64,000 bases of DNA from Candidatus Goldiibacteriota bacterium (GCA_018000835.1 JAGNJD010000001.1:137889-201888), one strand, 5' to 3'; positions 12,784-58,013 are shown, numbered from the stretch's first letter. Program-made: numbers and translations. The notes: generated from the sequence alone by a model not told the origin.

Positions 12784-12822
12784 CTTTTATTTTTAATGAT
12801 ACAACAAACAGTTGGACCCCCT

Positions 12823-13928: not shown

Positions 13929-13931
13929 TTT

Positions 13932-30425: not shown

Positions 30426-30426
30426 A

Positions 30427-31608
30427 ATGGAAACTGCGCAGGACCACATCAATTTAGGACTTGCCTTTACAATATCAAAAAATTACGTAATGGCAATAAA
30501 AGAATTTGAAAAAGCTCTAACGTTAAATCCGGATGATGCAGAAGTCCACGCTCATCTTGCAGACGTTTATGTTTACAAAGGCGATTATAACGGCGCAATA
30601 CAGGAGTATGAAAAAGCATTAAGGATAAATCCCGTTAACGTAAACATAATAATTAAACTTGGTAAGTTGTATGCAAATCTTGGTAAAACAGATAAGGCAA
30701 TTGAACAATACAAACGAGCGATTGAAATTAATCCCGATGACTTAAACATCAGACACGCAATGGGCGATGTTTACGTAAAAATGGAAAAACTTGCTGAAGC
30801 AGAAAAAGAATATAAATACATCCTTGAAAAAGACAGCGATAACATAGAAATAAGGTTTAAAATAGGTTATATTTATGAACTGACGAAAAAATATAAAGAA
30901 GCAGCAATTGAATACGAAAGTGTTTTAAAAAAAAATCCAAAAAGCCATGGTCTGTATTCGATACTTGGTAATATATATAAAAACATGAAAAATTATGATA
31001 AAGCAGTTGAATATTATGAAAAAGCATTACAGATAAATCCCAGGGAAGCAGGCGCTGCATATAATCTTGGAGTAATATATTATGAAAAGGGAGAATATGA
31101 AAAAGCACTTAACGAATTTGAGCGTGCCAAAGAAAATAAATATAAAAGCAGTGAAATACACATAAAAATAGGAGAAATTTACAATAAACTGGGGAAAAAA
31201 GAACAGGCCATTGAAGAATACAAAAAAGTTTCTGAAAAGGGAATTAAAACTGATTTTGAAACTCATAAAGCAATGGGTATTGTTTACTTTGAAGAAGGAC
31301 AACTGGATGAAGCAATCAAAGAATTTGAAATGGCTCTTGAACAAAAAAAAGACGATCCGTTCATATATGAAAATCTCGGACACATCTATTATAAAAAAGT
31401 CGTGTATAATGAATCCAAAACAAATTTTTTAAAAGCCATTGAACTCGGCAGGGAAGACGCTGAAATTTTTTACAAACTCGGCAACATTGCAATGAAAGAA
31501 AACGACCCCAAAAAAGCAAAAGAATACTGGGAAAAATCGTTAAAAATAAATCCCGACAACCAGATAATAATAAAAAATCTTAAATTACTTTCAAGCAGCA
31601 ACATTTAA
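30427..31608 (+). CDS. TPR repeat protein.
   Basis: About ten tandem 34-aa TPR units (AxxxLGxxYxxxGxYxxAIxxYxKALxxxP). Confidence 0.7.
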   Translation: METAQDHINLGLAFTISKNYVMAIKEFEKALTLNPDDAEVHAHLADVYVYKGDYNGAIQEYEKALRINPVNVNIIIKLGKLYANLGKTDKAIEQYKRAIEINPDDLNIRHAMGDVYVKMEKLAEAEKEYKYILEKDSDNIEIRFKIGYIYELTKKYKEAAIEYESVLKKNPKSHGLYSILGNIYKNMKNYDKAVEYYEKALQINPREAGAAYNLGVIYYEKGEYEKALNEFERAKENKYKSSEIHIKIGEIYNKLGKKEQAIEEYKKVSEKGIKTDFETHKAMGIVYFEEGQLDEAIKEFEMALEQKKDDPFIYENLGHIYYKKVVYNESKTNFLKAIELGREDAEIFYKLGNIAMKENDPKKAKEYWEKSLKINPDNQIIIKNLKLLSSSNI

Positions 31609-31619
31609 AGGGAAAATTT

Positions 31620-32228
31620 ATGAACATTCTGAAACAGCAGCAGAAAACCCTGGGGGAATTGCTTATTAATTCAGGCATAATAAACAAAGAACAACTCGAA
31701 ATCGCATTAAATGAACAAAAAAATACGGATGAGCCACTCGGAAAAATTTTAGTCCGTATGGGCTTTGCACGCGAAGAAGATATCATAAACGTTTTAAAAG
31801 GCATGCTTGTCGTAATTTTTGAGATAAACAACGAAAGTTTTGGGGTTGAAATAATATTTGCGAAAGAAATAATAAAATATAAAAAAATAATCCCTTTGCC
31901 CACGGTTTCAAAATACATTAAAGGTCTGATAAGCATCAGGGATATTGTCGTACCCGTTATCAGTTTAAACCAGATTATATACAATAAAGAAGACGTCGTT
32001 ACGGAAGATACCAGAATCATCGTTATAGAAAATAAGGACGACGTTGCGGGCATCCTCGTTGACAAAGTCGTTGCCGTAAAAAATTTTCATACGGGTGATT
32101 TTGAAAAGTTAAGCAATAATTCGGTTAATGCTGAAAAAAAATACATCGCAGGAATCATAAAAGATAAAAACGGAATTATTACCCTTATAAAACCTGAATT
32201 TATATTCTCGGGGAAAATATATGTCTGA
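31620..32228 (+). CDS. CheW-like coupling protein with an N-terminal MshEN/T2SSE_N-like (putative c-di-GMP-binding) domain.
   Basis: The N-terminus has two ~24-aa MshEN-type motifs, LGELLINSGIINKEQLEIALNEQ and LGKILVRMGFAREEDIINVL. The C-terminal 140 aa is CheW-like (FGVEIIFAKEII...GLISIRDIVVPVISL...AGILVDKVVAV). Confidence 0.6.
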   Translation: MNILKQQQKTLGELLINSGIINKEQLEIALNEQKNTDEPLGKILVRMGFAREEDIINVLKGMLVVIFEINNESFGVEIIFAKEIIKYKKIIPLPTVSKYIKGLISIRDIVVPVISLNQIIYNKEDVVTEDTRIIVIENKDDVAGILVDKVVAVKNFHTGDFEKLSNNSVNAEKKYIAGIIKDKNGIITLIKPEFIFSGKIYV

Positions 32229-34413
32229 TAATACCGTTGCCCCGGTCAGAAAACAAAACGATGATAACAGTGCAATTGAACATAACAACGCAGGTGTTTA
32301 TTATTATTCAAAAGGAATGTATCAGGAAGCAATTGAAGAATTCAAAAAAGCGTTAAGCATAAATCCATCCTACGTTCAGGCTCAGGCAAACCTGAAAGCT
32401 GTAAATAAACAAACGGGAATATACGACAGAGCCATACTTGCATATAAAAAAGTCCTGCAAATGAGGTCGGATGACCCCGATGCTTTTTTTAATCTGGGAC
32501 ATGCACTAACCTATACCGGTGAATATAAAGAAGCCATAAAATATCTCACAAAAACACTTGAGTTGAATCCAGAGCACATAATTGCACAGAATCTGCTTGG
32601 AATAATTTATAAAAATACGGGAGAAATTGACAGGGCAGAGCAGGTTTTCAGGGAAGCCTTAAAAAAATACCCTAATTTTGTAGAACTAAATAATAACCTG
32701 GGGGAAACTCTTTATAAAAAAGGTTTGTATGAAGAAGCAGAAAGTTACCTGAAACAGGCAATAAAATTAAACAAAGAATATGCCATTGCTTATTACAACC
32801 TTGGTTTTGTATACGGAGAACTAGGCAGGAATGAAGAAGCAAATGCATGCTACAACAGGGCAATTGAATTAAATCCTTCTTTTATAAAATCAAATAAAAG
32901 TTTAATAATTGACTATCATGAAACAGCCGGCGTAAAACGTGAAGCAGAAATTGAAAACCTGAGCGATGACAGAAAAGCAGAGGCATTTTATCATCTTGCC
33001 AGCGTTTACAAAATGAAAGGATATATTGACGACGCAATTACGCAGATAAAAAGAGCAATAACTTTAAATACGAAAAATCCAAATTATTACAATTTTTTTG
33101 GCGAGTTATTGATAAAAAAAGGCATGGTAAAAGATGCCGTTGAAATCTTCAAACAAACCATAAAAATTGAACCATCTTTCTTTGAAGCAAAATTAAACAT
33201 AGCGGTTGCATACAGGGAAATGAAAGAATTTGACAGGGCAAGAGAAGTCATTAAAACAATCAAAGAAGAAAATCCGGAATTCACAAGGGATGACCTGCAT
33301 CTTGGAATAATAGATTATAAGGAAGAAAAAATAGAAGAAGCCATTGAAAAGTTTATGTCACAATTAAAAAAAGAACCTTATGACGACGAATCTCATTATT
33401 ACCTGGGGCTCTGTTTTTACAAAAAAAAGGGGTATGACATGGCTATTACGGCGCTTCGCAGGGCAATTGAGCTTACTCCGGCTTACATTAAAAAACCGGA
33501 AGTAAACCTTTATCTCGGGCTCGTTCTTACGGACAAAAACAGATATGACGAAGCAATCGTTGAGTACCAAAAGGTTCTATCCGTGCAGCCGGATAATGCA
33601 GTTGCACACAACAGCATGGGGGTTGCTTATAAAAATCTCGGCAATCTTGACAGAGCAATAGATGAATACAAAAAAGCAGTTTTAATAGACAAAAATTATT
33701 ATAAGGCCTATAACAACCTTGGAGTTGCTTATTACAAAAAAAATTTTTTTGATGAAGCAGAAAAATATTTCAAAAAAGCACTGGAAATCGAGCCCGGCTA
33801 CGAAGTTGCCAGAAAAAACCTTGAATCCGCACAAAAAAAAGACGTAATTTTTAAAGAAACCATTGACAGATTGCAGGAAAAAATAAAGGAAAAACCGGAT
33901 GAACCTTCATTTTATTATGACCTTGCAAACGCATACAGAAACACTGGACATTTAAAAGACGCTATTGTAAAATATAAAAAAGTAATTGAATTGCAACCCG
34001 AAAACGTTGATGCCTGTAATAATCTGGGTATGGTTTACATGGAAGACGGGAATTATGACGAAGCAATAAAGGTCTTTATAAATGTCCTTTCAAAGGATTC
34101 AAAAAATTCCAGAGCACATTTATTGCTCGCAGATGCTTATTGCAAAAAAGAATGGTGGGATGAAGCAGACATAGAATACCATAAAGCCCTTGAATTAAAC
34201 AACGACCTTGAAGAAGTATTTTTCAAACTTGGAGAAGTATACAGACAAAAATCATGGTGGGATGAGGCAATTGAAATGTGGACAAAATATCTGGATAGAA
34301 ACGATGGCTCTGAAATGGCAAGACAGGCACAGGAAAACATAAGAATGATTGAACTGTGGAAAAGGGAATTTCTGATTTCGCCTTCCCAGAGCAATCGCAA
34401 AATTATTAAGTAA
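32221..34413 (+). CDS. Large TPR repeat protein (730 aa).
   Basis: More than 15 TPR units; start overlaps the upstream gene stop. Confidence 0.7.
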   Translation: MSDNTVAPVRKQNDDNSAIEHNNAGVYYYSKGMYQEAIEEFKKALSINPSYVQAQANLKAVNKQTGIYDRAILAYKKVLQMRSDDPDAFFNLGHALTYTGEYKEAIKYLTKTLELNPEHIIAQNLLGIIYKNTGEIDRAEQVFREALKKYPNFVELNNNLGETLYKKGLYEEAESYLKQAIKLNKEYAIAYYNLGFVYGELGRNEEANACYNRAIELNPSFIKSNKSLIIDYHETAGVKREAEIENLSDDRKAEAFYHLASVYKMKGYIDDAITQIKRAITLNTKNPNYYNFFGELLIKKGMVKDAVEIFKQTIKIEPSFFEAKLNIAVAYREMKEFDRAREVIKTIKEENPEFTRDDLHLGIIDYKEEKIEEAIEKFMSQLKKEPYDDESHYYLGLCFYKKKGYDMAITALRRAIELTPAYIKKPEVNLYLGLVLTDKNRYDEAIVEYQKVLSVQPDNAVAHNSMGVAYKNLGNLDRAIDEYKKAVLIDKNYYKAYNNLGVAYYKKNFFDEAEKYFKKALEIEPGYEVARKNLESAQKKDVIFKETIDRLQEKIKEKPDEPSFYYDLANAYRNTGHLKDAIVKYKKVIELQPENVDACNNLGMVYMEDGNYDEAIKVFINVLSKDSKNSRAHLLLADAYCKKEWWDEADIEYHKALELNNDLEEVFFKLGEVYRQKSWWDEAIEMWTKYLDRNDGSEMARQAQENIRMIELWKREFLISPSQSNRKIIK

Positions 34414-34420
34414 AAATTTC

Positions 34421-34759
34421 ATGAAAAAAATTACGGTAATAATACCACCAAACAAATTTGATAATTTAAAGAAAAAACTGATAGAAGACGGAGTAAAAGG
34501 CATTACAATAACCAGAGTTGATGGTTTTGGATACGAAAAAAAACAGATGGACGTTTTGAAAAACAAGGAAATACTAATTGAATCGCTGCCAAAAATAAAA
34601 CTGGAAATCGTATTAAAAGATAACGAAGTTGACGACGTTATAAACAGCATAATAGCCGTAACAAGAACAGGCAGATTGGGCGATGGTAAGATATTTGTAT
34701 CGGAAATAACCGACGTCATAAGAATTAGAACCGGCGAGAGAAAAGAAGATGCGTTATAA
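34421..34759 (+). CDS. P-II (GlnB/GlnK family) signal-transduction protein homolog.
   Basis: The 112-aa product aligns with GlnB along its whole length: MKKI.VIIPP.KFD.L...L...GV.G.T.T.V.GFG...; ...RTGRLGDGKIFVSEITDVIRIRTGE. The T-loop lacks the Tyr51 uridylylation site. Confidence 0.75.
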   Translation: MKKITVIIPPNKFDNLKKKLIEDGVKGITITRVDGFGYEKKQMDVLKNKEILIESLPKIKLEIVLKDNEVDDVINSIIAVTRTGRLGDGKIFVSEITDVIRIRTGERKEDAL

Positions 34760-34779
34760 AAAACTTTCGGAGGTATTAT

Positions 34780-35145
34780 ATGTCAAAAAAAGTATTACTT
34801 GCTGATGACGCTTCTTTTATGCGCATGATGCTCAGGAACATACTTGAACCAGCAGGTTTTACAATAGTTGGCGAAGCATCAAACGGAAGAGAAGCCATAG
34901 AGTTATATAAAAAATTAAAACCTGACGTTTTTATTACGGACATGATAATGCCGGAAATTGGCGGTATTGACGTCGTCCGTGAGTTAATAAAGGAATTTCC
35001 TGACGCCAACATAATTATATGTAGTGCCATCGGGCAGCAGACCCTTGTGATAGAAGCCATCCAGGCAGGTGCAAAGGATTACATAGTAAAACCTTTTGAA
35101 CAGGCAAACGTCCTGGAAACAATAAATAAAATAATAGAAAAATAA
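34780..35145 (+). CDS. cheY: Chemotaxis response regulator CheY.
   Basis: Single REC domain with the DD pair (LLADDASFMR), the phospho-acceptor Asp (FITDMIMP) and the conserved Lys (YIVKPF). Confidence 0.85.
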   Translation: MSKKVLLADDASFMRMMLRNILEPAGFTIVGEASNGREAIELYKKLKPDVFITDMIMPEIGGIDVVRELIKEFPDANIIICSAIGQQTLVIEAIQAGAKDYIVKPFEQANVLETINKIIEK

Positions 35146-35146
35146 C

Positions 35147-35770
35147 ATGCAAAACGAAAAACTTACCGACATGCAAAGAGATGCATTAAAAGAACTTGGA
35201 AATATTGGTGCAGGAAGCGCGGCAACCGCACTTTCCCAGCTTCTTGGCAAAGACATTAAATTAAACGTTCCTGACGTAACGATCATTCCAATTGAAAAAG
35301 TAAACGAAAAAATAGCAAAACACCAGCAGATAATAGCAGCCGTTTATTTGCGTATCTATGGTGAAATACAGGCAAGAGCACTCCTTATTCTTCCACAGGA
35401 TAAAATATTTTATATAATTGATCTTCTTATGAAAAAAAAACTGGGCACCACGAGAGAATTCGGTGAAAATGAACAATCGGCAATAAAAGAAATCGGTAAC
35501 ATAATTATCTCTTCGTATCTGAATGCTCTTGCAAAATTCATCGGCTTAAATTCAGTTCCTTCCGTACCTGCCCTTGCCGTTGACATGGCAGATGCCATTA
35601 TACAAACCATTTCTGCAGAACTTGCAGAAGTAGGCCCCGATGCTTTTCTTATAGAAAACGAAATGGTAGAAAAAGAAATAGATCTTTCTACCACTCTTTT
35701 AATATTGCCTGAAATGACTTCTATGAAAAAAATATTAAAAGCATTAAATGATACCATAAAAGGTTCATAA
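35147..35770 (+). CDS. cheC: CheC-family CheY-P phosphatase.
   Basis: Two internal repeats carry the E-x2-N motif (ALKELGNIGAGSAATALS and AIKEIGNIIISSYLNALA). Confidence 0.8.
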   Translation: MQNEKLTDMQRDALKELGNIGAGSAATALSQLLGKDIKLNVPDVTIIPIEKVNEKIAKHQQIIAAVYLRIYGEIQARALLILPQDKIFYIIDLLMKKKLGTTREFGENEQSAIKEIGNIIISSYLNALAKFIGLNSVPSVPALAVDMADAIIQTISAELAEVGPDAFLIENEMVEKEIDLSTTLLILPEMTSMKKILKALNDTIKGS

Positions 35771-35778
35771 TGAAATAG

Positions 35779-36249
35779 ATGGCTCACATAAACGTAGAAA
35801 TGGGACAACTAAAAATCGGGAAGTATAACGACGTACTGACTGCTTATGGCATAGGTTCCTGCGTCGTCGTTATTTGTTATGACAGGATAAATCCGGTTGC
35901 AGGAATGCTCCATGGAATATTACCGGAAAAACCTGCAAAAAAATCCGGTGAAAACAGATACATAAACAGCGGAATAGAAAATTTGATAAAAACTTTGCTT
36001 GACATGGGCGTAAGCATAAAAAACATTGATGCAAAGATTCTTGGCGGAGCGAGCATGTTTGACGTAAAATTGAGCAGCGATACCATAGGAGAAAGAAACA
36101 TTAAAATGGCAAAGGAAGTGCTTACAAAAAAACAGATAAAAATAACCGGCGAAGATACCGGCTTAAATTACGGCAGAAATGTTGAATTTTTCGTTGAAAC
36201 GAAAAAAACAGTGATAAAAAGTTTTACGCATGGCTTAAAATACATTTAA
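35779..36249 (+). CDS. cheD: Chemoreceptor glutamine deamidase CheD.
   Basis: The conserved active-site Cys is present (GIGSCVVVICYD) with the HGILP context. Confidence 0.8.
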   Translation: MAHINVEMGQLKIGKYNDVLTAYGIGSCVVVICYDRINPVAGMLHGILPEKPAKKSGENRYINSGIENLIKTLLDMGVSIKNIDAKILGGASMFDVKLSSDTIGERNIKMAKEVLTKKQIKITGEDTGLNYGRNVEFFVETKKTVIKSFTHGLKYI

Positions 36250-36262
36250 AAGGTAAAAATTT

Positions 36263-37531
36263 ATGAACAAAACAAAACAGCGTTTAACTATATTTACGCA
36301 ACTTATAATTATAAATGTCATAATCGGAATTCTTGTCGTTGCATCAATAGTGATTATGTCTATTTTAAACAAAATAGAGGTAAAGAGTTTAAGTTTCTTT
36401 CTGCTATGTGCAGGTGCATTTACGCTCATGATAATTGCAAACGCTTTTATATCAATGAATATAATTTTTTCCCAGACCGACGTCATCTCAAAAGAAAGCA
36501 AAAAAATAGCAAATGGTGATTTAACCATCCGGTTGATTAAAGAGGAAGGCCCGTTTGGCCAGATTACCGAATCCATAAATCAGATAACTGATGGAATAAA
36601 ATCTATCGTCAAAAAAGTAAACGAGTCCATAGAATCCATAATGACAATGGTTGAAAACCTGTCTGCATCGACGCAGGAGATAAACGCAAGCAGTGAGGAA
36701 ATTGCCTCCACGGTCCAGCAGATAGCGCGGGGAGTTGAGCAGCAGGCAAACAGGACGTCCGAAACCTCAAGAATTATGGAAAAAATGTCCGATTCAATAC
36801 AAAACGTCGCAAAAAAATCAGAAGACGTTTTAGAGGTCTCAACTAACGCAAGACAGGCAACGGACAAAGGGATTTCGGCAATGAATGAAATAACAAAAAA
36901 AATGGAAGGAATAGTAGAAGCAACGAACAATGCAAAAAATTCCATATCTGAATTACGCATTTATTCAGATAAAATAGAAGAGATAGTTAACATAATAACA
37001 GAAATTGCGGATGAAACCAACCTTCTCGCTTTAAACGCTGCAATTGAAGCGGCGAGAGCCGGAGAAGCAGGACGTGGATTTGCAGTAGTGGCAGACGAGG
37101 TCAGAAAACTTGCAGAAGGTTCAGCCGGTGCAGCAAAGGAAATTTCAAAATTGGTTGAGGAAATACATGAAAAAACAAAAACAGTTGAAAAAGCGGTTTT
37201 AAAAAGCGTTGAAGAAAACGAAAAAGGTAAAAAAGCCGTATATACGAGTGAAGATGCATTAAAAGAAATTGACATGATTGTCGGAAAAGTGGTCGACATT
37301 GCAAAAGAAATTTTTAATCTTACGCGACAACAGGCAGAAGATACGGATAAAGTCGTAAAAGCAGTGGAAGAGATTTCAGCAGTTGCGGAACAAACAGCGG
37401 CGGGCACACAGCAGGCATCTGCTTCAACGCAGGAACAAACTGCGTCAATGCAGGAAATAGCTGCACAGGCACAGGAACTGGCACAAACGGCCGAAGCCCT
37501 TAAAAATTCAATCAAAAAATTTAATTTTTAA
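36263..37531 (+). CDS. Methyl-accepting chemotaxis protein (two TM segments, HAMP, MCP signalling domain).
   Basis: Has the highly conserved hairpin-tip [39 protein letters not shown] and methylation heptads. Confidence 0.85.
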
Positions 37532-37541
37532 AGGAAATTTT

Positions 37542-38033
37542 ATGGAAAAAAAAGTCGTGGGTTTTAAATTAAAAGAAGAAGAGTTTGCGTTTGACATTAT
37601 GAAAGTCATTGAAATAATAAAACTAAAAGAAATAACTGAGGTTCCGACCGCCCCTGATTTTATAGAAGGCGTAATTAATTTAAGAGGCAAAATAATCCCT
37701 ATAATTGATTTAAGAAAAAGATTTAACGTGGACATTGAAGAAAGGGACAAAAACTACAGAATAATAATAGTTGAAATTTCCCAATCCCAGAACGTGGGAA
37801 TAATAGTCGACGAAGTCACAAAGGTCTTTTCGGTTACCGATGAGCAGACAATGCCTGTGCCGCAGACGGTGAGTCAGGCAGGCGGTAAATATATTGAATC
37901 AATAATTAAAATTGACGACAGAATTATTATCCTTCTGGATGTGGAAAAAATTTTTACGGAATCAGAAAAAATAGAATTAAACGACATCATTAACGTAGAC
38001 GGAGGTCAAATTGAAAAAAGTCCTGGTAGTTGA
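37542..38033 (+). CDS. cheW: Chemotaxis coupling protein CheW.
   Basis: FAFDIMKVIEII...VPTAPDFIEGVINLRGKIIPIIDLR...VGIIVDEV. Confidence 0.85.
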   Translation: MEKKVVGFKLKEEEFAFDIMKVIEIIKLKEITEVPTAPDFIEGVINLRGKIIPIIDLRKRFNVDIEERDKNYRIIIVEISQSQNVGIIVDEVTKVFSVTDEQTMPVPQTVSQAGGKYIESIIKIDDRIIILLDVEKIFTESEKIELNDIINVDGGQIEKSPGS

Positions 38034-38376
38034 TGATACAAAATTTATGAGGGATATTTTAAAAAACATATTGAAAAAAAAAGAACTTGAAATAATCGGG
38101 GAAGCCTCAAACGGCAAAGAAGCCGTATTAAAGTATCAGGAACTAAAACCAGATCTGGTTACCATGGACATTATAATGCCCGAGATGGACGGCATAGAAG
38201 CAGTAAAAAAAATAATGCAGATAGACCCGTCTGCTCGCATCCTGATGTGCAGTGCGATGGGGCAGCAGGCACTCGTTATTGAGGCAATTCAATCAGGAGC
38301 CAGGGATTTCGTAATAAAGCCGTTTCAGCCGGCAAGAGTACTTGAGGCGGTTGACAGGGCACTACAGGGAGAATAA
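38011..38376 (+). CDS. cheY: Chemotaxis response regulator CheY (second copy).
   Basis: VLVVDDTKFMR...VTMDIIMPEMDG...FVIKPF. Confidence 0.85.
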   Translation: MKKVLVVDDTKFMRDILKNILKKKELEIIGEASNGKEAVLKYQELKPDLVTMDIIMPEMDGIEAVKKIMQIDPSARILMCSAMGQQALVIEAIQSGARDFVIKPFQPARVLEAVDRALQGE

Positions 38377-38378
38377 TT

Positions 38379-39443
38379 TTGGAACCCATAAAAGTTCTTG
38401 TGGTTGACGATTCTTCGTTTATGCGTAAAATCATTCCACAACTGCTTGAAGAAGACAGCGAAATAAAAGTGATAGACTCGGCCAGGGACGGCATGGAAGC
38501 GCTGAAAAAAATACAACGGTTAAGGCCGGACGTCGTAACTCTGGACATTGAAATGCCGGGTATGAACGGTCTGGAGACGCTATGCAAAATAATGAAAGAT
38601 TATCCAATGCCGGTCATAATGCTTTCGGCCTATACGCCGGAAGGTGCTGAAATAACGTTAAAAGCTCTCGAATATGGTGCAATTGATTTTATAAGAAAAC
38701 CTTCCGGAGAAATATCCCTTGACATCAAAAAAGTCCAGAAAGAACTCATAGAAAAAATTAAAATTGCAAAAACTATAGACCTCTCAAAACTCAAATGCAT
38801 AACAAAAAAAGAATTCACGATTGATAAGTCTTCCGGATTAAATGCCGAAATGGTAAAAACTCTGGTTATAATCGCTGCTTCAACCGGCGGTCCCAGAGCA
38901 CTCTATGAAATACTGCCAAAACTTGAAAAGAAAAATTTTCCGGTTTCTTTTCTTGTCATCCAGCACATGTCTTCCGGTTTTACAAGCACGCTTGCATCGC
39001 GTCTTAATTCAATTTCCATGCTAAACGTAAAAGAAGCCGAAGATGGTGAGGAAATACTGCCTGAAACAATTTACATAGCCCCTGGGAATTTTCATATGGG
39101 AATTAAAAACATCAATGACAAAATTTACGTTTTGTTAAACCAGGAACCGGCAATGCATGGAGTAAGGCCGGCTGCCGACATGACAATGGTATCGGTTGCA
39201 AAAAATTTTAACGGCAGCATAATTTCCGTAATACTTACGGGCATGGGAAAAGACGGAACAGCCGGTGCAGAAAAAATAAAAGAAAAAGGCGGCAGGGTAA
39301 TAGCCCAGGATAAGGAAACCAGCGTAATTTTTGGAATGCCGAGGATTGCAATTGAAAAAGGCGTAGTCGACGTCGTAGCACCGCTCCAGAAAATTTCTGA
39401 AATCATTAATGTGGAAATTGAAAAAATGCTGGAGAAAAAATGA
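38379..39443 (+). CDS. cheB: Protein-glutamate methylesterase CheB (REC plus methylesterase).
   Basis: N-terminal REC domain (VLVVDDSSFMR...VTLDIEMPGMNG). The C-terminal domain has the catalytic Ser (IAASTGGP), His (IQHMSSGF) and Asp (GMGKDG). Confidence 0.9.
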   Translation: MEPIKVLVVDDSSFMRKIIPQLLEEDSEIKVIDSARDGMEALKKIQRLRPDVVTLDIEMPGMNGLETLCKIMKDYPMPVIMLSAYTPEGAEITLKALEYGAIDFIRKPSGEISLDIKKVQKELIEKIKIAKTIDLSKLKCITKKEFTIDKSSGLNAEMVKTLVIIAASTGGPRALYEILPKLEKKNFPVSFLVIQHMSSGFTSTLASRLNSISMLNVKEAEDGEEILPETIYIAPGNFHMGIKNINDKIYVLLNQEPAMHGVRPAADMTMVSVAKNFNGSIISVILTGMGKDGTAGAEKIKEKGGRVIAQDKETSVIFGMPRIAIEKGVVDVVAPLQKISEIINVEIEKMLEKK

Positions 39444-41425
39444 ACATAGAAAATTACAAAGACGTTTTTCTGGAAGAGGCGGAAGAAAATATTAAAAATT
39501 TTAACATATCTCTCGTAATTTTTGAAAAAAACACCGATGATTTAACACCGTTAAACGAACTTTTCAGAATTGCGCATACAATAAAAGGCATGGCTGCAAC
39601 AATGGGTTATGACAGACTTACTGAATTTACGCATAACCTCGAAGAAATCCTTGATAACATCAGAAACGGGTCGTTACCTGTGTCCAGAAATATAATAAAC
39701 ATTCTCTATAAAAGCATTGATGCCATCCAGGAATTTATCGAAAATATAAAAGAAAAAAACTCTGATTTTGCCGGTAACACAAAGGAAATAATGGCAGCAA
39801 TCAGGGACGTATTGAAATATTCCGGTAAAAAAGAAATAAAAGAAGAAACGAAAGCAGAACAGGAATCACCGGAAGAAAAAATCGTTATTCCCGAAAACGT
39901 CATTGAAGAAGCACATTCACGCGGACTTAAGGTTTACATAGTAAAAGTTTACGTATCCCATTCATGCACCTTTAAAAACGTCAGAGCATTTATGATTGTC
40001 CGGAACCTTTCTGAAAAAGGTGAAATTATTAATTCCATACCTTCATCAAAAAACATAGAAGACGGAAATTTTGAGAAAATGATACAATTTGGTTTTGTTT
40101 CAAAGTTAGAAATTGCAGACATAGAAAAAGCAGTCATGAAAATATCCGAGATTGAAAAAGTTGAGGTTTTTCCAGTGGAAAAGCCGGTGCAGATGGAAAA
40201 AAACACAGAAGAAATTTCGGAAGAAGAAACATCAAGGGAGAAAAAAATTTCTGCCATTCCGCAGAATGTGCGCATAAACGTTGAAAAAATAGATGCTTTG
40301 ATGAACCTGGTCGGCGAACTCGTCATAACCAAAATTCGTCTGGACCAGATAACAAAAGAGAAAAAATTTCAATTGCTCAGAGAAGCAGTGGACGAGTTTG
40401 ACAGAATAATAAACCAGTTGCAAACAGAGGTAACGGACGTACGTATGCTCCCGGTTTCTCATATTTTTGAAAAATATCCGCGCATCATAAGAGACCTGGC
40501 CGTTGAATCCGAAAAGGAAATTGATTGTGAAATAGTCGGCGGCGACATAGAACTGGACAGAACCGTCCTGGAAGAAATAAACGAACCACTTCTTCACCTG
40601 GTGCGTAACGCGGTTTCGCACGGCATAGAAACCCCTGAGCAGCGCGAAATAGCAGGTAAACCCAAAAAAGGTCTCATAAAAATCGAAGCGAAAAGGGAAA
40701 AAAATTCCGTTCTGATAGAGGTTTCTGACGACGGCAGGGGAATATCGCTGGAAAAAGTAAGAAAAAAAGCAATAGAAAAAAACATCATCACGGAAGAACG
40801 TGCAAAATATATGAACGACGACGAGATAATAAATCTGATTGCAATACCAGGATTTTCAACGTCAGAAAAAGTTGATAAAATATCAGGAAGAGGCGTAGGC
40901 GTAGACGTCGTAAAAACAAAGGTTGAAAGGTTTGGAGGGCTTTTAAAAATAGAGAGTTACGAAGGTGAAGGGTCAAAATTCATAATGAAACTTCCTTTGA
41001 CGCTCGCGATTATCCAGTCGTTGCTCATAAAATCCGGAAAATCAACTTTTGCTCTGCCGGTTACGCACGTCGCGGAAATACTCGAAATAAACCGTGCAGA
41101 ACTTAAAAAAATACAAAAAAAAGACGTTATAATATTAAGAGGTGAAATCATTCAGGTCGTTCCTCTTTGTGAATTATTACACAGAAAAAAAACGGAAGAA
41201 AAAGAAATTATGAACCTTGTTGTGGTTGAATCAAGGGACAAACGCATAGCAATAGAAGTTGACGAGGTTTTATGTCAGCAGGAAATAGCAATTAAAAGTC
41301 TGGGAGATTTTTCAAAATATGCAAAAGGTTTTTCCGGGGTTACGATTCTTGGAGACGGCAGCATAAGCCTGATTCTAGACATACAGGCCCTGCTTGAAGG
41401 GATGGCCGTAAGCACAAACGCTTAA
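39440..41425 (+). CDS. cheA: Chemotaxis histidine kinase CheA.
   Basis: P1/Hpt domain with the phosphorylatable His (IAHTIKGMAATMGY). P4 HATPase (NAVSHGIE...DDGRGI...GRGVGVDVV). C-terminal P5 CheW-like domain. Confidence 0.9.
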   Translation: MNIENYKDVFLEEAEENIKNFNISLVIFEKNTDDLTPLNELFRIAHTIKGMAATMGYDRLTEFTHNLEEILDNIRNGSLPVSRNIINILYKSIDAIQEFIENIKEKNSDFAGNTKEIMAAIRDVLKYSGKKEIKEETKAEQESPEEKIVIPENVIEEAHSRGLKVYIVKVYVSHSCTFKNVRAFMIVRNLSEKGEIINSIPSSKNIEDGNFEKMIQFGFVSKLEIADIEKAVMKISEIEKVEVFPVEKPVQMEKNTEEISEEETSREKKISAIPQNVRINVEKIDALMNLVGELVITKIRLDQITKEKKFQLLREAVDEFDRIINQLQTEVTDVRMLPVSHIFEKYPRIIRDLAVESEKEIDCEIVGGDIELDRTVLEEINEPLLHLVRNAVSHGIETPEQREIAGKPKKGLIKIEAKREKNSVLIEVSDDGRGISLEKVRKKAIEKNIITEERAKYMNDDEIINLIAIPGFSTSEKVDKISGRGVGVDVVKTKVERFGGLLKIESYEGEGSKFIMKLPLTLAIIQSLLIKSGKSTFALPVTHVAEILEINRAELKKIQKKDVIILRGEIIQVVPLCELLHRKKTEEKEIMNLVVVESRDKRIAIEVDEVLCQQEIAIKSLGDFSKYAKGFSGVTILGDGSISLILDIQALLEGMAVSTNA

Positions 41426-41437: not shown

Positions 41438-42061
41438 ATGGAAAATAAACAGGAACTAAATCTTACGGAAGCGCAGATTGATGCATTAAAAGAGGTTGGA
41501 AACGTTGGTGCAGGTCACGCTGCAACCGCTCTATCCCAGCTTATAAAGAAAAAAATAATGATAACTGTCCCGGAAGTAAAAATAATAGGGTTGCAGGAAG
41601 TTCCGGGCTTAATAGGCGATTCCCAATCCCTTGTTGCAGGCGTCATTATGAACGTCCTGGGAGACATAACAGCTAAAATACTTTTGCTGCTTACCAGGGA
41701 AAGTGCACTATCCCTTGCCGACATGCTTTTACAAAAAAAGCCCGGCACGACAAAAGTTTTATCCGAGATAGGAAACTCTGCAATAAAGGAAACCGGAAAC
41801 ATTTTATCCGGTGCATACATGAATGCGTTAAACGAATTTCTGGGATTAATACTTCTGCCATCGGTACCGACGCTTGTTTTTGACATCGCAGGCGCGGTTC
41901 TTTCTGCCGTATCCGACGGTTTCGAAGGTGTATCGTCAAAAATATTGTCAATTGAAACGCAATTTTCAGAGACAAACGATAAAATAATAAAAGGCTATTT
42001 GTTGCTCATTCCTGACGTTTTGTCTGTAAGCGTCATTTTAGATGCAATAAAAGTAAAATAA
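41438..42061 (+). CDS. CheC-family phosphatase, paralog 2 (CheC/CheX/FliY-type).
   Basis: IDALKEVGNVGAGHAATALS...AIKETGNILSGAYMNAL. It is ~75% identical to the product of 45747-46373. Confidence 0.75.
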   Translation: MENKQELNLTEAQIDALKEVGNVGAGHAATALSQLIKKKIMITVPEVKIIGLQEVPGLIGDSQSLVAGVIMNVLGDITAKILLLLTRESALSLADMLLQKKPGTTKVLSEIGNSAIKETGNILSGAYMNALNEFLGLILLPSVPTLVFDIAGAVLSAVSDGFEGVSSKILSIETQFSETNDKIIKGYLLLIPDVLSVSVILDAIKVK

Positions 42062-42106: not shown

Positions 42107-44221
42107 ATGTTGACTTTTGCACTTGACATAGGAACCAGAAAAGTAGCAGGTATTTTAGGTCTGCAACAGGGAGAAAAAATAAAAATCGTTGATGCCGTGG
42201 TAAAAGAACATAATAAAAGATCCATGTATGACGGCCAGATACATAACATAGAAGAAGTTACTGCAATTGTTCGTTCAATAAAATCAGAACTTGAGGAAAA
42301 AAACAAAATAAAACTTTCAACGGTGTCTTCGGCACTTGCAGGCAGGGACCTTTATATCCAGACGTCATTTTCTGAAATAAACAAAAAGGGCGAAATAACA
42401 AAGGAAGACGTTTCTTTTGCCGAAATGGAAAGCGTAAGAAAGGCATGTGAGCAGTTAACCGAAAAACAAAAGAGGGAATATTACTGCGTTGGTTATTCTA
42501 CGGTTGCGTATCAGATAGACGGAGTCCCGATAAAAAATCCTTTATACCAGTTTGTCAGGAATAGTTTCAGTGTTGAAACCATTGCAACGTTTTTACCAAG
42601 GATGACTCTCGAATCAATGCTTGCCGTTTTGAAAAACAGTGGACTTGAAATAGAAACGATAACGCTGGAACCGATAGCAGCATTAAACGTAACAATTCCC
42701 GACGACATGCGGCTTTTAAACCTTGCGCTCGTTGACGTCGGAGCAGGCACGTCAGACGTTGCCATAACCGACAAAGGTAAAATAATTTCCTATGGCATGA
42801 TTCCTAAGGCAGGCGACGAAATAACAGAAGAAATATGTTCAAAATTTCTCGTTGACTTTAACGAAGCAGAAAAAATAAAAAGAACCATATCAGAAAAAAC
42901 AATTGTTGAATCGTCCAACATATTTAACAAAAAAATATCGGTCACGTCTGACGACTTCACGGCAGCGGTGGAAGAAAAAGTCAATGAAATTGCAAAGGAG
43001 ATTGCAGATACCATACTACAGTTAAACAAAAAACAACCTGCTGCAGTCGTAATGGTTGGCGGCGGAAGCGGGCTGAATTTGTTAAAAGAAAAAATTGCAG
43101 ATAATCTTGGTCTGCCTCATAGCAGGGTTGGCAGCAGGACCCCGCTTAACATATTAAATCTTGAAAACCTGCCTGAGAGGTTACTTGGCACGGAAGCCAT
43201 AACGCCGCTTGGCATTCTCGACGCCGCGGTGTTCAAACGCGGACTCGGGTTCATAGACGTTTATTTGAACGAAGAAAAAGAACACATAATAAACCTTGAA
43301 CAGGAAATAAAAGTCATTGACGTTCTTACAAACCGTGGAATTGACATGAAAAAACTTTACGGCAGGCCGGGCAATGCCATCACTTTTACCTTAAACGGGG
43401 AATTAAAAATAATAAGAGGCGAAAAAGCAGAACATGCAAAAATATTCATAAACAACGACGAAAAAGACATCTATTCAACCGTAAAGCAGGGTGACAAAAT
43501 ATTCATAACAAACGCAAAAGACGGTATGGACGCATCGGTTACCGTAAAACAGGTTATTTCACAAAACGACGTTCTGACCGTCTCAATAAACGGCGAAAAT
43601 CACACAATTTATCCCGACGTTTACGTTGACGAAAAACAGGTGACAGACATAAACGAAACGATAAACGACAGGGCAGACGTTTACGTCAGAAAAACAGATG
43701 CGTTAAAAGACGTCCTGCTAAAAGCAGGTCTTTCAATCGGGAAAACCGAAGAGAGGGACATCATAATCACGGTTAACAACGAACCGCTCACGCTAAAGCA
43801 GAGAAACTTCCGGCTTAAAGTAAATGGCATGGACGTTTCGCCGGATTACAAAGTAAAAAACATGGACAAAATAGAATATAAGGAAACTCCGTCGTATTAT
43901 AAAATAAAAGACATAATAAAAAACAGAAAAACTACGATTACGGTCAAAATAAACGGGAAGCCGTTTGAAATAGAACATACGGGCAGGGACATATACATGA
44001 ACGGAAAAAAGGCAGATGAAAACGAGTTCATAATAAACGGTGCAAACATAGAAGTAAAAATGAGCGAAGTAAGACCAATGCTTTCGTCAATTTTCCGGGT
44101 ATACCCCATTGACAGGGAACAGATGAGAGGCAGGATGCTCGAAATAAAATTAAACGGTGAAAAAGCAGGTTATACGACTGAAATCCGCGACGGTGACGAA
44201 ATAGAAATTCTGTTTGTATGA
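42107..44221 (+). CDS. FtsA/PilM-like actin-fold (ASKHA) ATPase with a ~330-aa C-terminal array of ThiS/MoaD-like beta-grasp-type repeats.
   Basis: N-terminus FALDIGTRKVAGILGL (phosphate-1), LALVDVGAGTSDVAI (phosphate-2) and VVMVGGGSGL (adenosine motif). The domain order resembles FtsA, including an SHS2-like insert. The C-terminal half holds ~9 repeats of a hydrophobic-x-hydrophobic-NGE motif and ends ...LNGEKAGYTTEIRDGDEIEILFV, which resembles the ThiS C-terminus but lacks the terminal GG. Confidence 0.5.
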   Translation: MLTFALDIGTRKVAGILGLQQGEKIKIVDAVVKEHNKRSMYDGQIHNIEEVTAIVRSIKSELEEKNKIKLSTVSSALAGRDLYIQTSFSEINKKGEITKEDVSFAEMESVRKACEQLTEKQKREYYCVGYSTVAYQIDGVPIKNPLYQFVRNSFSVETIATFLPRMTLESMLAVLKNSGLEIETITLEPIAALNVTIPDDMRLLNLALVDVGAGTSDVAITDKGKIISYGMIPKAGDEITEEICSKFLVDFNEAEKIKRTISEKTIVESSNIFNKKISVTSDDFTAAVEEKVNEIAKEIADTILQLNKKQPAAVVMVGGGSGLNLLKEKIADNLGLPHSRVGSRTPLNILNLENLPERLLGTEAITPLGILDAAVFKRGLGFIDVYLNEEKEHIINLEQEIKVIDVLTNRGIDMKKLYGRPGNAITFTLNGELKIIRGEKAEHAKIFINNDEKDIYSTVKQGDKIFITNAKDGMDASVTVKQVISQNDVLTVSINGENHTIYPDVYVDEKQVTDINETINDRADVYVRKTDALKDVLLKAGLSIGKTEERDIIITVNNEPLTLKQRNFRLKVNGMDVSPDYKVKNMDKIEYKETPSYYKIKDIIKNRKTTITVKINGKPFEIEHTGRDIYMNGKKADENEFIINGANIEVKMSEVRPMLSSIFRVYPIDREQMRGRMLEIKLNGEKAGYTTEIRDGDEIEILFV

Positions 44222-44240: not shown

Positions 44241-45566
44241 ATGCGGGCTTTGCTTATAAATCCATGGATATACGATTTTAAATGCCATGATTTCTGGATA
44301 AAACCACACGGTTTTCTGCGGATTGCTTCCATGTTAAAAAATAACGGCTTTGCCATAGATTTTATTGATTGCATGGACAGGTTTGACCCTGACATGAAGG
44401 ACTACAAAATAAAAGACGATGAATATGGCAAAGGAAAATTTTTTTACGAAGAAATTGAAAAACCAGACGTTTATTCAAAAATACCCAGAAAATATAAAAG
44501 ATACGGAACCCTGGTTTCGATTTTTAAAAATAAACTGGAGAAATTACAAAAGCCGGACGTTATTTTAATTACGTCTTCAATGACGTATAATTATGAAGGC
44601 GTTTTTTACGCAATTGATTTGTTAAAAGAAAAATTTGAAAACGTAAAAATAGTTCTGGGCGGTATTTATGCAACGCTTTGCAATGACCATGCAAAAAAAC
44701 GTTCAAAAGCAGATTTTGTGTGGAAAGGCCGGGTTAACGATACTTTTTTCAAACTGCTGAAACATTATACCGGCAAGGACATAATCTGTGATGAAAACAT
44801 AAACGAAGTTCTTCCGGATTATTCTTTTTATAAAAACGTGCCTTATGCTGCCGTGCGTTTTACTTTTGGATGTCCATTTAACTGCACATACTGTGCCGTA
44901 AAAAGTTTTAACGATGATTATTATCAGAGAGACGTGCAAAATATTATTTATGAACTAAAAAAATATTACGAGTCGGGCATTTCAGACGTTGCGTTTTATG
45001 ACGATGCATTGCTTTATAAAAATTTTTACGTAAAATCGATATTAAGAAAAATCATAAAAGAAAAACTGAAATTCCATTTCCACACTCCAAACGGATTACA
45101 CGCTTCATACGTTGACGCTGATATGGCAGAACTTCTAAAAGAGTCCGGTTTTGTTGACCTGCGCATCTCCCTTGAGACGTCTGATTATGAACTACAGAAA
45201 AAAACCGGAGGCAAAGTAACCGACGAAAATTTCATGCAATCCGTTAAAAATCTGAAAAACGCAGGTTTTAAGGGCTCTGACATAGGTGTCTATATACTCG
45301 CAGGACTGCCACATCAGAAATACGATTCTGTTTTAAAAGACGTTCATTATCTTATGGATAAAAAAGTAAAAATAAAAATTGCAAATTATTCTCCAATTCC
45401 AGGCACCGTTGACTTTTTGGAATTAAGGGAAGATATCAGGGCACAGATTGCAGCAGAACCGCTGAAACAAAACGAACTTTATTTTCTTACGATAAATAAT
45501 GATTTTACCTGGGAAGACAACGAAAAAATAAAAAAAATGGTGAATGACCACAATCATTCGTTGTAA
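44241..45566 (+). CDS. Radical SAM protein with an N-terminal B12-binding-like (Rossmann) domain.
   Basis: CPFNCTYC (CxxxCxxC) lies at ~aa 212. The N-terminus LLINPWIYDF...PHGFLRIASMLKNNGFAIDFIDC is typical of class-B / B12-rSAM enzymes. 441 aa. Confidence 0.7.
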   Translation: MRALLINPWIYDFKCHDFWIKPHGFLRIASMLKNNGFAIDFIDCMDRFDPDMKDYKIKDDEYGKGKFFYEEIEKPDVYSKIPRKYKRYGTLVSIFKNKLEKLQKPDVILITSSMTYNYEGVFYAIDLLKEKFENVKIVLGGIYATLCNDHAKKRSKADFVWKGRVNDTFFKLLKHYTGKDIICDENINEVLPDYSFYKNVPYAAVRFTFGCPFNCTYCAVKSFNDDYYQRDVQNIIYELKKYYESGISDVAFYDDALLYKNFYVKSILRKIIKEKLKFHFHTPNGLHASYVDADMAELLKESGFVDLRISLETSDYELQKKTGGKVTDENFMQSVKNLKNAGFKGSDIGVYILAGLPHQKYDSVLKDVHYLMDKKVKIKIANYSPIPGTVDFLELREDIRAQIAAEPLKQNELYFLTINNDFTWEDNEKIKKMVNDHNHSL

Positions 45567-45746: not shown

Positions 45747-46373
45747 ATGGATGAACGGCAGGAACTTACACTCACAGAAGCACAAATAGATGCGTTAAAA
45801 GAAGTAGGCAACATAGGTGCAGGACATGCCGCAACTGCACTCTCACAGATGGTAAACAAAAAAAAGATAATGATAACCGTACCTGAAGTAAAAGTAGTTG
45901 AAAAAGATAAAATTTTTAATTACACTGATGAACCCGATGCCCTGTCAACCGGAGTGATTATGAACGTGCTTGGTGACGTCGTATCAAAAATTATAATGCT
46001 TATAAAAAAAGAAAGTGCGTTATACCTTGCCGACCTGTTACTTAAAAAAAAGCCGGGCACGTCAAAATTACTTACAGAGATGGAAAATTCGGCAGTAAAA
46101 GAGATAGGCAACATTTTATCCGGTGCATACATGAATGCTTTAAATGAATTCCTCGGCCTGATGCTTCTGCCTTCTGTTCCAAACCTTGTTTTTGATACTT
46201 CTGCTGCAATACTTACTGCGGTTTTGGACAGTTTTGAAGACGTATCTTCAAAAATACTTTCCATTGAAACCCAGTTTATTGAGACAAACGAAAAAATTTT
46301 AAAAGGATACCTGCTTTTAATGCCAGACACTTCATCGGTAAAAATAATTCTTGATGCAATAAAGGTAAAATAA
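45747..46373 (+). CDS. CheC-family phosphatase, paralog 3 (near-duplicate of 41438-42061).
   Basis: IDALKEVGNIGAGHAATALS...AVKEIGNILSGAYMNALNEFLGL...ILDAIKVK. Own TATAAT at 45733-45738; no obvious RBS. Confidence 0.75.
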   Translation: MDERQELTLTEAQIDALKEVGNIGAGHAATALSQMVNKKKIMITVPEVKVVEKDKIFNYTDEPDALSTGVIMNVLGDVVSKIIMLIKKESALYLADLLLKKKPGTSKLLTEMENSAVKEIGNILSGAYMNALNEFLGLMLLPSVPNLVFDTSAAILTAVLDSFEDVSSKILSIETQFIETNEKILKGYLLLMPDTSSVKIILDAIKVK

Positions 46374-56476: not shown

Positions 56477-56893
56477 AATTATGCATTTATTGATGTTTAT
56501 TTTATAGGAAGTGACCTTAAATTTTGAATTGAAAATTGTATTTTAATTATATAAAAATATAATGGAACAATTGATGTATTTAAGGTTTCCTGATATGAAA
56601 CGAACATATGTTCTTTGAAAATTGTTAATAATTATATGAATATTATGCAATTTTAATGTGGATAATTATTTTTCCGATTTTAAATGTGGATAATTGCTGA
56701 TTATTATATTAAAATAATATAATTATTAACATTAAAAAAAATTTTTTTATATTTTATTTTATTATATTTTTTTACTTTTAAACATATTAACAATACAACA
56801 ACAATAACAACAGTTTTATAAATTATTAAATATGTATTTATTGTTATGTGTATAAATTAAAATTAATTAAAAATTTTAATAGGAGGTATTTTT
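56477..56893. promoter_or_regulatory. Putative oriC: dnaA-dnaN intergenic region with DnaA boxes and a very AT-rich unwinding element.
   Basis: TGTGGATAA at 56657-56665 and 56685-56693; nearly pure A/T DNA from ~56700 to 56880. A further box, TGTGGATAA at 55090-55098, lies just upstream of dnaA. Confidence 0.6.
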
Positions 56894-58000: not shown

Positions 58001-58013
58001 ATTTCTAAAAGGG

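What the first reader, a model, noticed from the sequence alone, without database searches (positions are those of the whole stretch)
42107..44221. FtsA-like actin-fold ATPase with a C-terminal array of ThiS-like repeats, inserted between duplicated cheC genes
Residues 1-~370 have all ASKHA/FtsA signature motifs. The next ~330 residues contain about nine reiterations of a short hydrophobic-x-hydrophobic-NGE motif, spaced 20-35 aa apart. The final unit (LNGEKAGYTTEIRDGDEIEILFV) looks like the C-terminal strand of ThiS/MoaD beta-grasp proteins but has no terminal Gly-Gly. I do not recognise this architecture. It lies inside a chemotaxis operon, flanked by two ~75%-identical cheC paralogs, and is followed by a B12-type radical SAM enzyme. 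This suggests a 3.7-kb two-gene module acquired by insertion or duplication at cheC. ASKHA ATPases such as the HgdC/BcrD activase at 1-829 also act as ATP-dependent activators of radical enzymes, so a functional pairing with the adjacent rSAM protein is an alternative to a cytoskeletal role.
Basis: inference. Interest (0 to 1): 0.7.

Follow-up and report, generated by a model that had tools for sequence, protein, structure and literature searches.

The report
Actin-like ATPase built into chemotaxis operons
This gene encodes an uncharacterised 704-residue protein, an FtsA/PilM-type actin-fold ATPase followed by five small repeated modules, whose relatives sit inside chemotaxis gene clusters in several bacterial phyla and one archaeal genus, so it may be an overlooked accessory part of chemosensory systems.

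Summary

The motifs belong to five mutually homologous units (hhalign 88-99%). Their likeness to ThiS/MoaD/SAMP/TGS is weak and covers only a helix and the last two strands. There is no Gly-Gly terminus.

The gene was not inserted between duplicated cheC genes. The order cheA-cheC-X, or cheA-X-cheC, recurs in Goldbacteria, Omnitrophota, Elusimicrobia, PVC and Planctomycetales MAGs and in Methanolobus, often with che genes on both sides. The radical SAM gene follows X only in the window and three close relatives (79-82% identity). The third cheC occurs in only two of these four loci.

X belongs to a large family of constant architecture, also found in Bacillota and Thermotogota outside che clusters. 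Databases name it only "cell division FtsA domain-containing protein", and I found no paper on it.

My best reading is an ATP-dependent scaffold or polymer serving the chemosensory apparatus. That mechanism is inferred, not shown.

The parts
42107..44221 (+). Gene X: 704-aa FtsA/PilM-like ATPase with five C-terminal repeat units
   Evidence: ORF. Full-length homologs of 700-735 aa. AlphaFold2 model with mean pLDDT 86.4.
42107..43231 (+). Residues 1-375: actin-fold ATPase of the FtsA/PilM class, including the 1C-type subdomain
43238..43522 (+). Unit D1 (residues 378-472), the longest unit. Strand/helix order is bb-a(a)-bb-bb-b, compatible with a complete beta-grasp.
   Evidence: DSSP of the model. 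hhalign to D2-D5 gives 95-98% probability.
43523..43699 (+). Unit D2 (residues 473-531)
   Evidence: hhalign: D2 vs D4 98.9%. DSSP.
43700..43894 (+). Unit D3 (residues 532-596): helix, inserted hairpin, then a 'VNG...D-x-I-E' strand pair
   Evidence: The D3 profile best matches SAMP2 (E 0.0048), PF1061, MoaD, RelA-TGS, RnfH and ThiS among PDB sequences. hhalign.
43895..44074 (+). Unit D4 (residues 597-656)
   Evidence: hhalign. DSSP.
44075..44218 (+). Unit D5 (residues 657-704). It ends ...DGDEIEILFV, with no Gly-Gly.
   Evidence: Pfam ThiS and TGS partial hits at 675-702. hhalign.
39440..41425 (+). cheA, the conserved upstream partner of the cheC-X pair
   Evidence: ORF. Synteny maps.
41438..42061 (+). 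cheC2, directly upstream of X. The gap is 45 bp and a GGGAG lies 8 nt before the X start codon.
   Evidence: Pfam CheC. Sequence. Conserved adjacency.
29622..41425 (+). Rest of the chemosensory cluster: cheR, TPR, cheW, TPR, P-II, response regulator, cheC1, cheD, MCP, cheW, cheY, cheB, cheA
   Evidence: The same order is seen in L004, L006, L007 and L009.
44241..45566 (+). B12-binding radical SAM gene, a clade-specific neighbour and not part of the conserved unit
   Evidence: Pfam Radical_SAM plus B12-binding. Every NCBIfam hit is far below its cut-off. It follows X only in the window, L006, L089 and L090.
45747..46373 (+). cheC3, an older duplicate of cheC2 (70% identical), present only in the window and L089
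   Evidence: Absent from L006 and L090.

Best explanation
**Shown.** Gene X belongs to a large, uncharacterised protein family of constant architecture. It has an FtsA/PilM-class actin-fold ATPase with intact nucleotide-binding motifs. This is followed by five tandem, mutually homologous small alpha/beta units that most resemble truncated ThiS/MoaD/SAMP-type beta-grasp domains. It is not the division FtsA, not PilM, not a sulfur carrier and not a radical-enzyme activase. In the branch that contains this window, X is a conserved member of the chemosensory gene cluster, placed right after cheA-cheC or between cheA and cheC.

**Inferred.** Known members of this fold class use the ATPase core to polymerise or dock onto partner peptides. 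FtsA binds the FtsZ and FtsN tails, and PilM binds the PilN tail. I propose that X works the same way. The fast-evolving acidic repeat tail would then be the binding platform for chemosensory partners (CheC, CheA or receptors). X would thereby organise or position the signalling array, or couple CheC/CheY-P activity to it. cheA-cheC2-X-rSAM are probably co-transcribed. The rSAM gene and the third cheC are later, clade-specific additions downstream.

For: **Repeats.** The five units are homologous. The motif is strongly enriched. Sequence affinity is to beta-grasp families.

**Constant architecture.** 617 cluster representatives match the tail at E <= 0.001. In almost all full-length proteins among the best 150 listed (about 690-800 aa) the match lies at roughly residues 375-720; the shorter entries, with the match elsewhere, look like fragments.

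**Che linkage.**
- cheA-cheC-X in PVC L001, Goldbacteria L004, L006, L007, L009, L089 and L090, and L091 with a 2.6-kb gap before X.
- Also in Omnitrophota-type L008, L010, L014 and L096, unnamed MAGs L159 and L113, and L109 (cheC only; contig ends), and Methanolobus L013 and L016.
- cheA-X-cheC in L011 and in Elusimicrobia L171.
- X has che genes on both sides in L008, L010, L011, L013, L014, L016 and L171. L012 has che genes downstream, but its upstream side is cut off.
- The che-linked proteins group together in a neighbour-joining tree.
- Gene overlaps or gaps are short: 4-bp overlap in L008, 45 bp with an RBS in the window.

**Other.** No transmembrane segment and an acidic tail (pI 5.8) argue against RNA binding. 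The tail evolves faster than the ATPase: 25% vs 44% identity to the non-che branch.
Against: - No experiment or structure shows any contact with Che proteins.
- Most family members sampled (Bacillota, Thermotogota) are not in che clusters. One is from Bhargavaea; from my own recollection, unchecked here, that genus is described as non-motile. The family's core function may therefore be more general.
- A second recurrent context, mutS2-X, exists in Thermotogota, Synergistetes-like MAGs and L173.
- In Goldbacteria and PVC, X lies at the 3' edge of the che cluster, next to dprA-topA-xerC. Old synteny could explain part of the linkage there.
- Promoter and terminator scans were uninformative.
- The fold of the repeat units was never compared in 3-D, and the direct ThiS profile test was negative or underpowered.
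Confidence: 0.45

Rival explanations
1. X has a general housekeeping role unrelated to chemotaxis, as a cytoskeletal, polarity or Hsp70/EutJ-like remodelling ATPase. Its place in che clusters would be inherited gene order rather than function.
For: - The Bacillota branch is in lineage-specific housekeeping contexts: ccpA-aroA / X / brxC in Bacilli, and tagA-X-ctsR-mcsAB in Syntrophomonas.
- mutS2-X recurs in Thermotogota and Synergistetes-like MAGs.
- dprA-topA-xerC follows X in L001, L004 and L007.
- The ATPase core is very strongly conserved across all branches.
Against: - X is flanked on both sides by che genes in at least seven loci from several phyla.
- X sits inside the che clusters of two Methanolobus genomes, and these proteins branch beside the bacterial che-linked ones. 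This suggests co-transfer and retention with the che genes.
- cheR lies just upstream of X even in three Clostridia-type loci.
Confidence: 0.3
2. X is an ATP-dependent activator or partner of the adjacent B12-radical SAM enzyme.
For: Only 19 bp separate X from the rSAM gene in the window. Some ASKHA ATPases do activate radical enzymes (established knowledge of HgdC/BcrAD).
Against: - The rSAM gene is next to X in 4 of about 170 loci, all with X at least 79% identical.
- In L089 an 840-bp gap separates them.
- There is no BcrAD_BadFG Pfam hit, and only one invariant Cys, C127.
Confidence: 0.03
3. X is simply the organism's FtsA or PilM, a division or pilus protein with an unusual tail.
For: The closest structures and profiles are FtsA and PilM. 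Databases call it FtsA.
Against: - TIGR01174 FtsA scores 112.9 bits against a cut-off of 175.85. TIGR01175 PilM scores 55.2 against 133.
- No locus examined shows a dcw or pilNOPQ context.
- X occurs in Methanolobus; from my own recollection, unchecked here, archaea lack FtsA.
- There is no C-terminal amphipathic helix; the end is a beta-strand.
Confidence: 0.03
4. The tail units act as ThiS/MoaD-type sulfur carriers or as ubiquitin-like modifiers.
For: Weak ThiS, TGS and Ub-family profile hits.
Against: - There is no C-terminal Gly-Gly in the window protein or in the family consensus.
- The units are internal, tandem and truncated.
- The hits cover only ~25-30 residues.
- None of the neighbours checked against Pfam is an E1-like (ThiF/MoeB) protein.
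Confidence: 0.01

Closest known systems
FtsA (cell-division actin homologue; PDB 7q6d, 3wqt, 1e4f)
   Different: 15-22% identity. Below the NCBIfam FtsA cut-off. No C-terminal membrane-targeting helix; five extra domains take its place. Never found in a dcw context. Present in an archaeon.
PilM (type IV pilus alignment ATPase; PDB 2ych, 5eou)
   Different: Below the PilM NCBIfam cut-off. No pilNOPQ neighbours. About 330 extra C-terminal residues.
ThiS / MoaD / SAMP / TGS ubiquitin-like beta-grasp domains
   Same: These are the only families with recurrent sequence affinity to the repeat units: a helix plus the 'VNG...dGD-x-I-E' strand pair. Unit D1 has a beta-grasp-compatible order of strands and helix.
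   Different: Units D2-D5 lack the N-terminal hairpin and carry an extra hairpin after the helix. There is no Gly-Gly. The units are tandem and internal. The similarity is below threshold for each unit taken alone.
ParA-type ATPases encoded in che clusters (PpfA of Rhodobacter sphaeroides, ParC of Vibrio), cited from my own knowledge
   Same: The analogy is functional only: an ATPase gene embedded in a chemotaxis cluster that positions or segregates chemoreceptor arrays.
   Different: A completely different fold (a ParA/MinD-type ATPase, not an actin fold). No homology. This role for X is untested.

Membership tests
FtsA (division) | Actin fold with a 1C subdomain in place of 1B | tested here: met
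FtsA (division) | Score above the curated equivalog cut-off (TIGR01174) | tested here: not met
   112.9 bits against a cut-off of 175.85.
FtsA (division) | C-terminal amphipathic membrane-targeting helix | tested here: not met
   The C-terminus is the last beta-strand of unit D5 (E698-703). No hydrophobic segment is present.
FtsA (division) | Location in the dcw cluster next to ftsQ/ftsZ | tested here: not met
   No locus whose neighbours were annotated or clustered shows it.
PilM | Score above the TIGR01175 cut-off, and a pilMNOPQ operon | tested here: not met
   55.2 bits against a cut-off of 133. No pilN/O/P neighbours. A secretin gene lies nearby only in L171.
ThiS/MoaD sulfur carriers | C-terminal Gly-Gly | tested here: not met
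   The protein ends ...EILFV, and the family consensus has no GG.
ThiS/MoaD sulfur carriers | Full-length match to the beta-grasp profile | tested here: not met
   Per-unit hits cover only profile positions ~38-70 of 76, at E 1e-4 to 0.02. hhalign against an enterobacterial ThiS profile gives 1.5-5.6% probability, but that profile is shallow (Neff 1.8).
Beta-grasp (ubiquitin-like) fold in general | A b-b-a-b-b(-b) topology with a mixed sheet grasping the helix | tested here: inconclusive
   The secondary-structure order of D1 fits, while D2-D5 are a-bb-b-b. The best PDB sequence matches of the D3 profile are beta-grasp proteins at E 0.005-1. No 3-D comparison of single units was possible: fold searches were dominated by the ATPase domain and afdb50 was unavailable.
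S4 (alpha-L) domain | Match to the S4 profile and a basic RNA-binding surface | tested here: not met
   S4 hits 1 of 45 members at E 0.006 and gives only sub-threshold partial hits. The tail is acidic, pI 5.8.
HgdC/BcrAD-type radical-enzyme activase | BcrAD_BadFG profile match | tested here: not met
Chemosensory accessory component (proposed) | Conserved co-location with che genes across distant lineages | tested here: met
   About 20 loci from at least five bacterial lineages plus Methanolobus.
Chemosensory accessory component (proposed) | Physical or genetic interaction with Che proteins or arrays | not testable with these tools
   Needs pull-downs, localisation studies or deletion phenotypes.

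The most novel reading that the evidence does not exclude
X defines a previously unrecognised accessory component of a widespread class of CheC/CheD-containing chemosensory systems. It would be an actin-fold ATPase, not a ParA-type one, that polymerises or docks at the receptor array through a tail of degenerate ubiquitin-like modules. It would position the array or gate CheC phosphatase output. It appears to have moved together with the che genes into an archaeon.
Probability: 0.3. Interest if true: 0.8.

Novelty: new variant of a known kind. Interest (0 to 1): 0.6.

Why it matters
As far as I recall, the chemoreceptor-array positioning factors described so far are ParA-like ATPases. An actin-fold ATPase conserved inside che clusters of Goldbacteria, Omnitrophota, Elusimicrobia, PVC and Planctomycetales bacteria and of Methanolobus would be a new type of accessory component. 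It would also be a new functional branch of the FtsA/PilM family.

The family is large: 617 cluster representatives at 50% identity match the tail. It is present in cultivable Bacillota such as Brevibacillus, Oceanobacillus, Syntrophomonas, Selenomonas and Heliobacterium, so its function can be tested directly. At present it is mis-annotated as 'cell division protein FtsA'.

The tail may also be an example of beta-grasp modules that have been reduced and multiplied into a scaffold.

Tried and rejected
- **Single-sequence structure prediction.** The AlphaFold2 run without an alignment was useless (pLDDT 33).
- **Sequence and profile searches of the tail against PDB.** The whole tail, the D1 profile and the D5 profile gave nothing significant. 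Only the D3 profile gave a coherent, sub-threshold list of beta-grasp proteins.
- **Profile-profile test against ThiS.** The ThiS alignment retrieved was shallow (65-100% identity), so the comparison was underpowered and aligned only 9-11 columns.
- **Literature.** Nine full-text searches, combining FtsA with beta-grasp, chemotaxis, che operon, FtsA-like, paralog or Goldbacteria, found no description of this family.
- **Promoter and terminator scan.** Results were no better than shuffled sequence.
- **Rejected readings.** A mobile two-gene insertion between cheC copies, rSAM activase, sulfur carrier, true FtsA/PilM, and S4-type RNA binding.

Full report
**1. What is in the sequence.**
The ORF 42107-44221 (+) encodes 704 aa. 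Pfam places FtsA, PilM_2 and MreB models on residues 175-343. It also gives a weak whole-protein ThiS score of 25.6 bits, whose best stretch is residues 675-702. NCBIfam's FtsA equivalog scores 112.9 bits against a cut-off of 175.85, and PilM scores 55.2 against 133. By curated criteria the protein is therefore neither. The phosphate-1 (DIGTR), phosphate-2 (LVDVGAGTSD) and adenosine (GGGS) motifs are invariant in 115 homologs. Shuffles give a mean of 0.22 and a maximum of 3 in 5000.

**2. Structure.**
A single-sequence AlphaFold2 run failed (pLDDT 33). With a 115-sequence alignment the model reached pLDDT 86.4 and pTM 0.61.

The remaining residues form five units: D1 378-472, D2 473-531, D3 532-596, D4 597-656 and D5 657-704. 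D1 has the order bb-a(a)-bb-bb-b. D2-D5 have (a)-bb-b-b. Sub-alignments of the units recognise one another in hhalign at 88-99% probability. Each unit carries two 'NG' hairpins, which explains the ten motifs and their alternating spacing.

The protein has no hydrophobic segment (maximum KD19 of 1.27), and its C-terminus is a beta-strand rather than an amphipathic helix. The tail is acidic, with pI 5.8.

**3. What fold are the units?**
The evidence is sequence-based only.
- Among 45 family members, Pfam ThiS matches 34 (best 3e-10), TGS 18, Ub-Mut7C 15, Ub-RnfH 4 and S4 just 1.
- Those scores are sums of partial matches to the last ~25-30 positions of the models.
- A profile of unit D3 searched against PDB sequences returns SAMP2 (E 0.0048), PF1061, MoaD, RelA-TGS, RnfH, Ta0895 and ThiS. 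Two S4 proteins rank lower. The SAMP2 alignment pairs the unit's helix with the beta-grasp helix and the 'VNG...DGD-x-I-E' segment with the last strands. A 23-residue hairpin is inserted between them, and nothing corresponds to strands 1-2.
- Profiles of D1 and D5 found nothing significant.
- hhalign against a shallow enterobacterial ThiS alignment aligned only 9-11 columns.

I conclude that the units are probably beta-grasp-derived. D1 may be complete and D2-D5 rearranged or truncated. This has not been verified in 3-D. There is no Gly-Gly terminus, so a carrier or modifier role is excluded.

**4. The family.**
Full-length homologs of 700-735 aa and 37-82% identity occur in Goldbacteria, Omnitrophota, Elusimicrobia, PVC-group and Synergistetes-like MAGs. 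Homologs at 32-37% identity occur in many Bacillota (Brevibacillus, Oceanobacillus, Sutcliffiella, Syntrophomonas wolfei, Heliobacterium, Selenomonas, Pectinatus), in Thermotogota and in Methanolobus.

An exhaustive phmmer search with the tail alone found 617 cluster representatives at E <= 0.001. In almost all full-length proteins among the best 150 listed, the match lies at roughly residues 375-720, so the architecture is fixed. The shorter listed entries look like fragments. Source names are generic, such as 'cell division FtsA domain-containing protein', 'rod shape-determining protein' or 'ATPase'. The ATPase half is much better conserved than the tail: identity to the non-che branch is 44% against 25%.

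**5. Gene context.**
The window carries one long chemosensory cluster: cheR, TPR, cheW, TPR, P-II, response regulator, cheC1, cheD, MCP, cheW, cheY, cheB, cheA, cheC2, X.

The order cheA-cheC-X recurs widely:
- other Goldbacteria at 56-82% identity: L004, L006, L007, L009, L089, L090 and L091 (L091 has a 2.6-kb gap between cheC and X);
- a PVC-group MAG (L001);
- Omnitrophota-type loci (L008, L010, L014, L096);
- unnamed MAGs (L113, L159; in L109 only cheC lies upstream before the contig ends);
- two Methanolobus genomes (L013, L016).

L011 and an Elusimicrobia MAG (L171) have cheA-X-cheC instead. In L008, L010, L011, L013, L014, L016 and L171, X is flanked by che genes on both sides. L012 has che genes downstream, but its upstream side is cut off. 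These proteins group together in a neighbour-joining tree.

The Bacillota and Thermotogota branch is not che-linked. Bacilli have ccpA-aroA / X / brxC, and Syntrophomonas has tagA-X-ctsR-mcsAB. Thermotogota, Synergistetes-like MAGs and L173 have mutS2-X. cheR lies just upstream of X in three Clostridia-type loci.

**6. The 'inserted module' idea.**
The rSAM gene follows X only in the window, L006, L089 and L090, whose X proteins are 79-82% identical to the window's. The third cheC is present only in the window and L089. More distant Goldbacteria have dprA-topA-xerC or an unknown gene after X. cheC2 and cheC3 are 70% identical at both protein and DNA level, so the duplication is not recent.

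X was therefore not inserted between cheC duplicates. The rSAM gene, and in some lineages cheC3, were added between X and rtcB. The rSAM protein matches no curated NCBIfam subfamily. Its non-conserved pairing with X, together with X's FtsA-class fold, argues against an activase relationship.

**7. Mechanism (inferred).**
Known members of this fold class either polymerise on a surface and bind partner tails (FtsA with FtsZ and FtsN) or dock statically onto a partner peptide (PilM with PilN). X keeps a fully conserved ATPase site and adds a variable, acidic, five-module tail with no membrane anchor. It is embedded in che clusters across phyla, and its presence inside the Methanolobus che clusters suggests co-transfer with them.

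The most economical reading is an ATP-dependent scaffold or polymer that binds chemosensory components through its tail. It would organise or position the array, or modulate the neighbouring CheC phosphatase. ParA-type ATPases encoded in che clusters (PpfA, ParC; my own knowledge) are functional precedents with an unrelated fold.

The main rival is a general housekeeping role, suggested by the non-che contexts. The mutS2 linkage is unexplained. I give the che-accessory reading a confidence of about 0.45 and the housekeeping rival about 0.3.

**8. Novelty.**
The gene family is already present in databases, but no curated model covers its architecture. Nine full-text literature searches found no description of it. 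I class it as a new variant of a known kind: a distinct, uncharacterised branch of the FtsA/PilM family, with a new tail and a new chemosensory genomic association.

Noticed in passing
L008:10158-10421; also L010, L012, L014, L094: A small ComFB-domain gene (87 aa, Pfam E 1e-26) lies directly after X and before cheR in five Omnitrophota- and Planctomycetales-type che clusters. It is absent from the window.
   Followed up: partly
L013 and L016 (Methanolobus), positions 3800-14650: Two archaeal genomes carry X inside a che cluster (cheY-cheB-cheA-cheC-X-cheR-cheC-cheC-cheD). This suggests transfer of X between domains together with the che genes.
   Followed up: partly
L002/L003, L172, L173, L024, L101, L118, L041: A second recurrent context. 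mutS2 (Smr domain) lies directly upstream of X in Thermotogota, Synergistetes-like MAGs and L173. In L002 and L172, X is followed by a protein-kinase/UvrD-helicase fusion, cheW and an HD-GYP gene. UvrD-like genes also follow the che-X clusters of L011 and L171.
   Followed up: partly
window ~34420-35140: A P-II nitrogen-regulator homolog (112 aa) and a response regulator (121 aa) sit inside the che cluster, just before cheC1-cheD. The same arrangement is seen in L004, L006 and L007.
   Followed up: partly
window 30427-31608 and 32221-34413: Two large TPR-repeat proteins (393 and 730 aa) are interleaved with cheR and cheW at the head of the che cluster.
   Followed up: no
window 27758-29461: A 567-aa ORF at the start of the plus-strand gene block has no Pfam hit.
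   Followed up: no
window 829-1 (minus strand): A BcrAD/BadFG-family ATPase ORF (Pfam E 2e-19) runs off the window's left end.
   Followed up: yes
window 20265-22176 and 55091-60497: Replication-origin-type genes are present: recF and gidB on the minus strand; dnaA, dnaN and gyrA on the plus strand. Gene orientation and GC skew switch near 27-28 kb.
   Followed up: no
window 9999-10604: An rve-family integrase/transposase ORF lies in a locally GC-richer stretch (GC 0.41 against about 0.33).
   Followed up: no
L089:9116-9953: In this close relative, an 840-bp gap with two tiny called ORFs (54 and 38 aa) separates X from the B12-radical SAM gene. The window has only 19 bp there. These could be precursor peptides, but this was not examined.
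   Followed up: no
window 6138-7424: An HD-GYP-type phosphodiesterase with sCache and HAMP sensor domains.
   Followed up: no
window 42485-42487 (Cys127 of X): A single cysteine in the motif YYCVGYS is invariant in 115 homologs and at least 90% conserved across the whole family. Its role is unknown.
   Followed up: no
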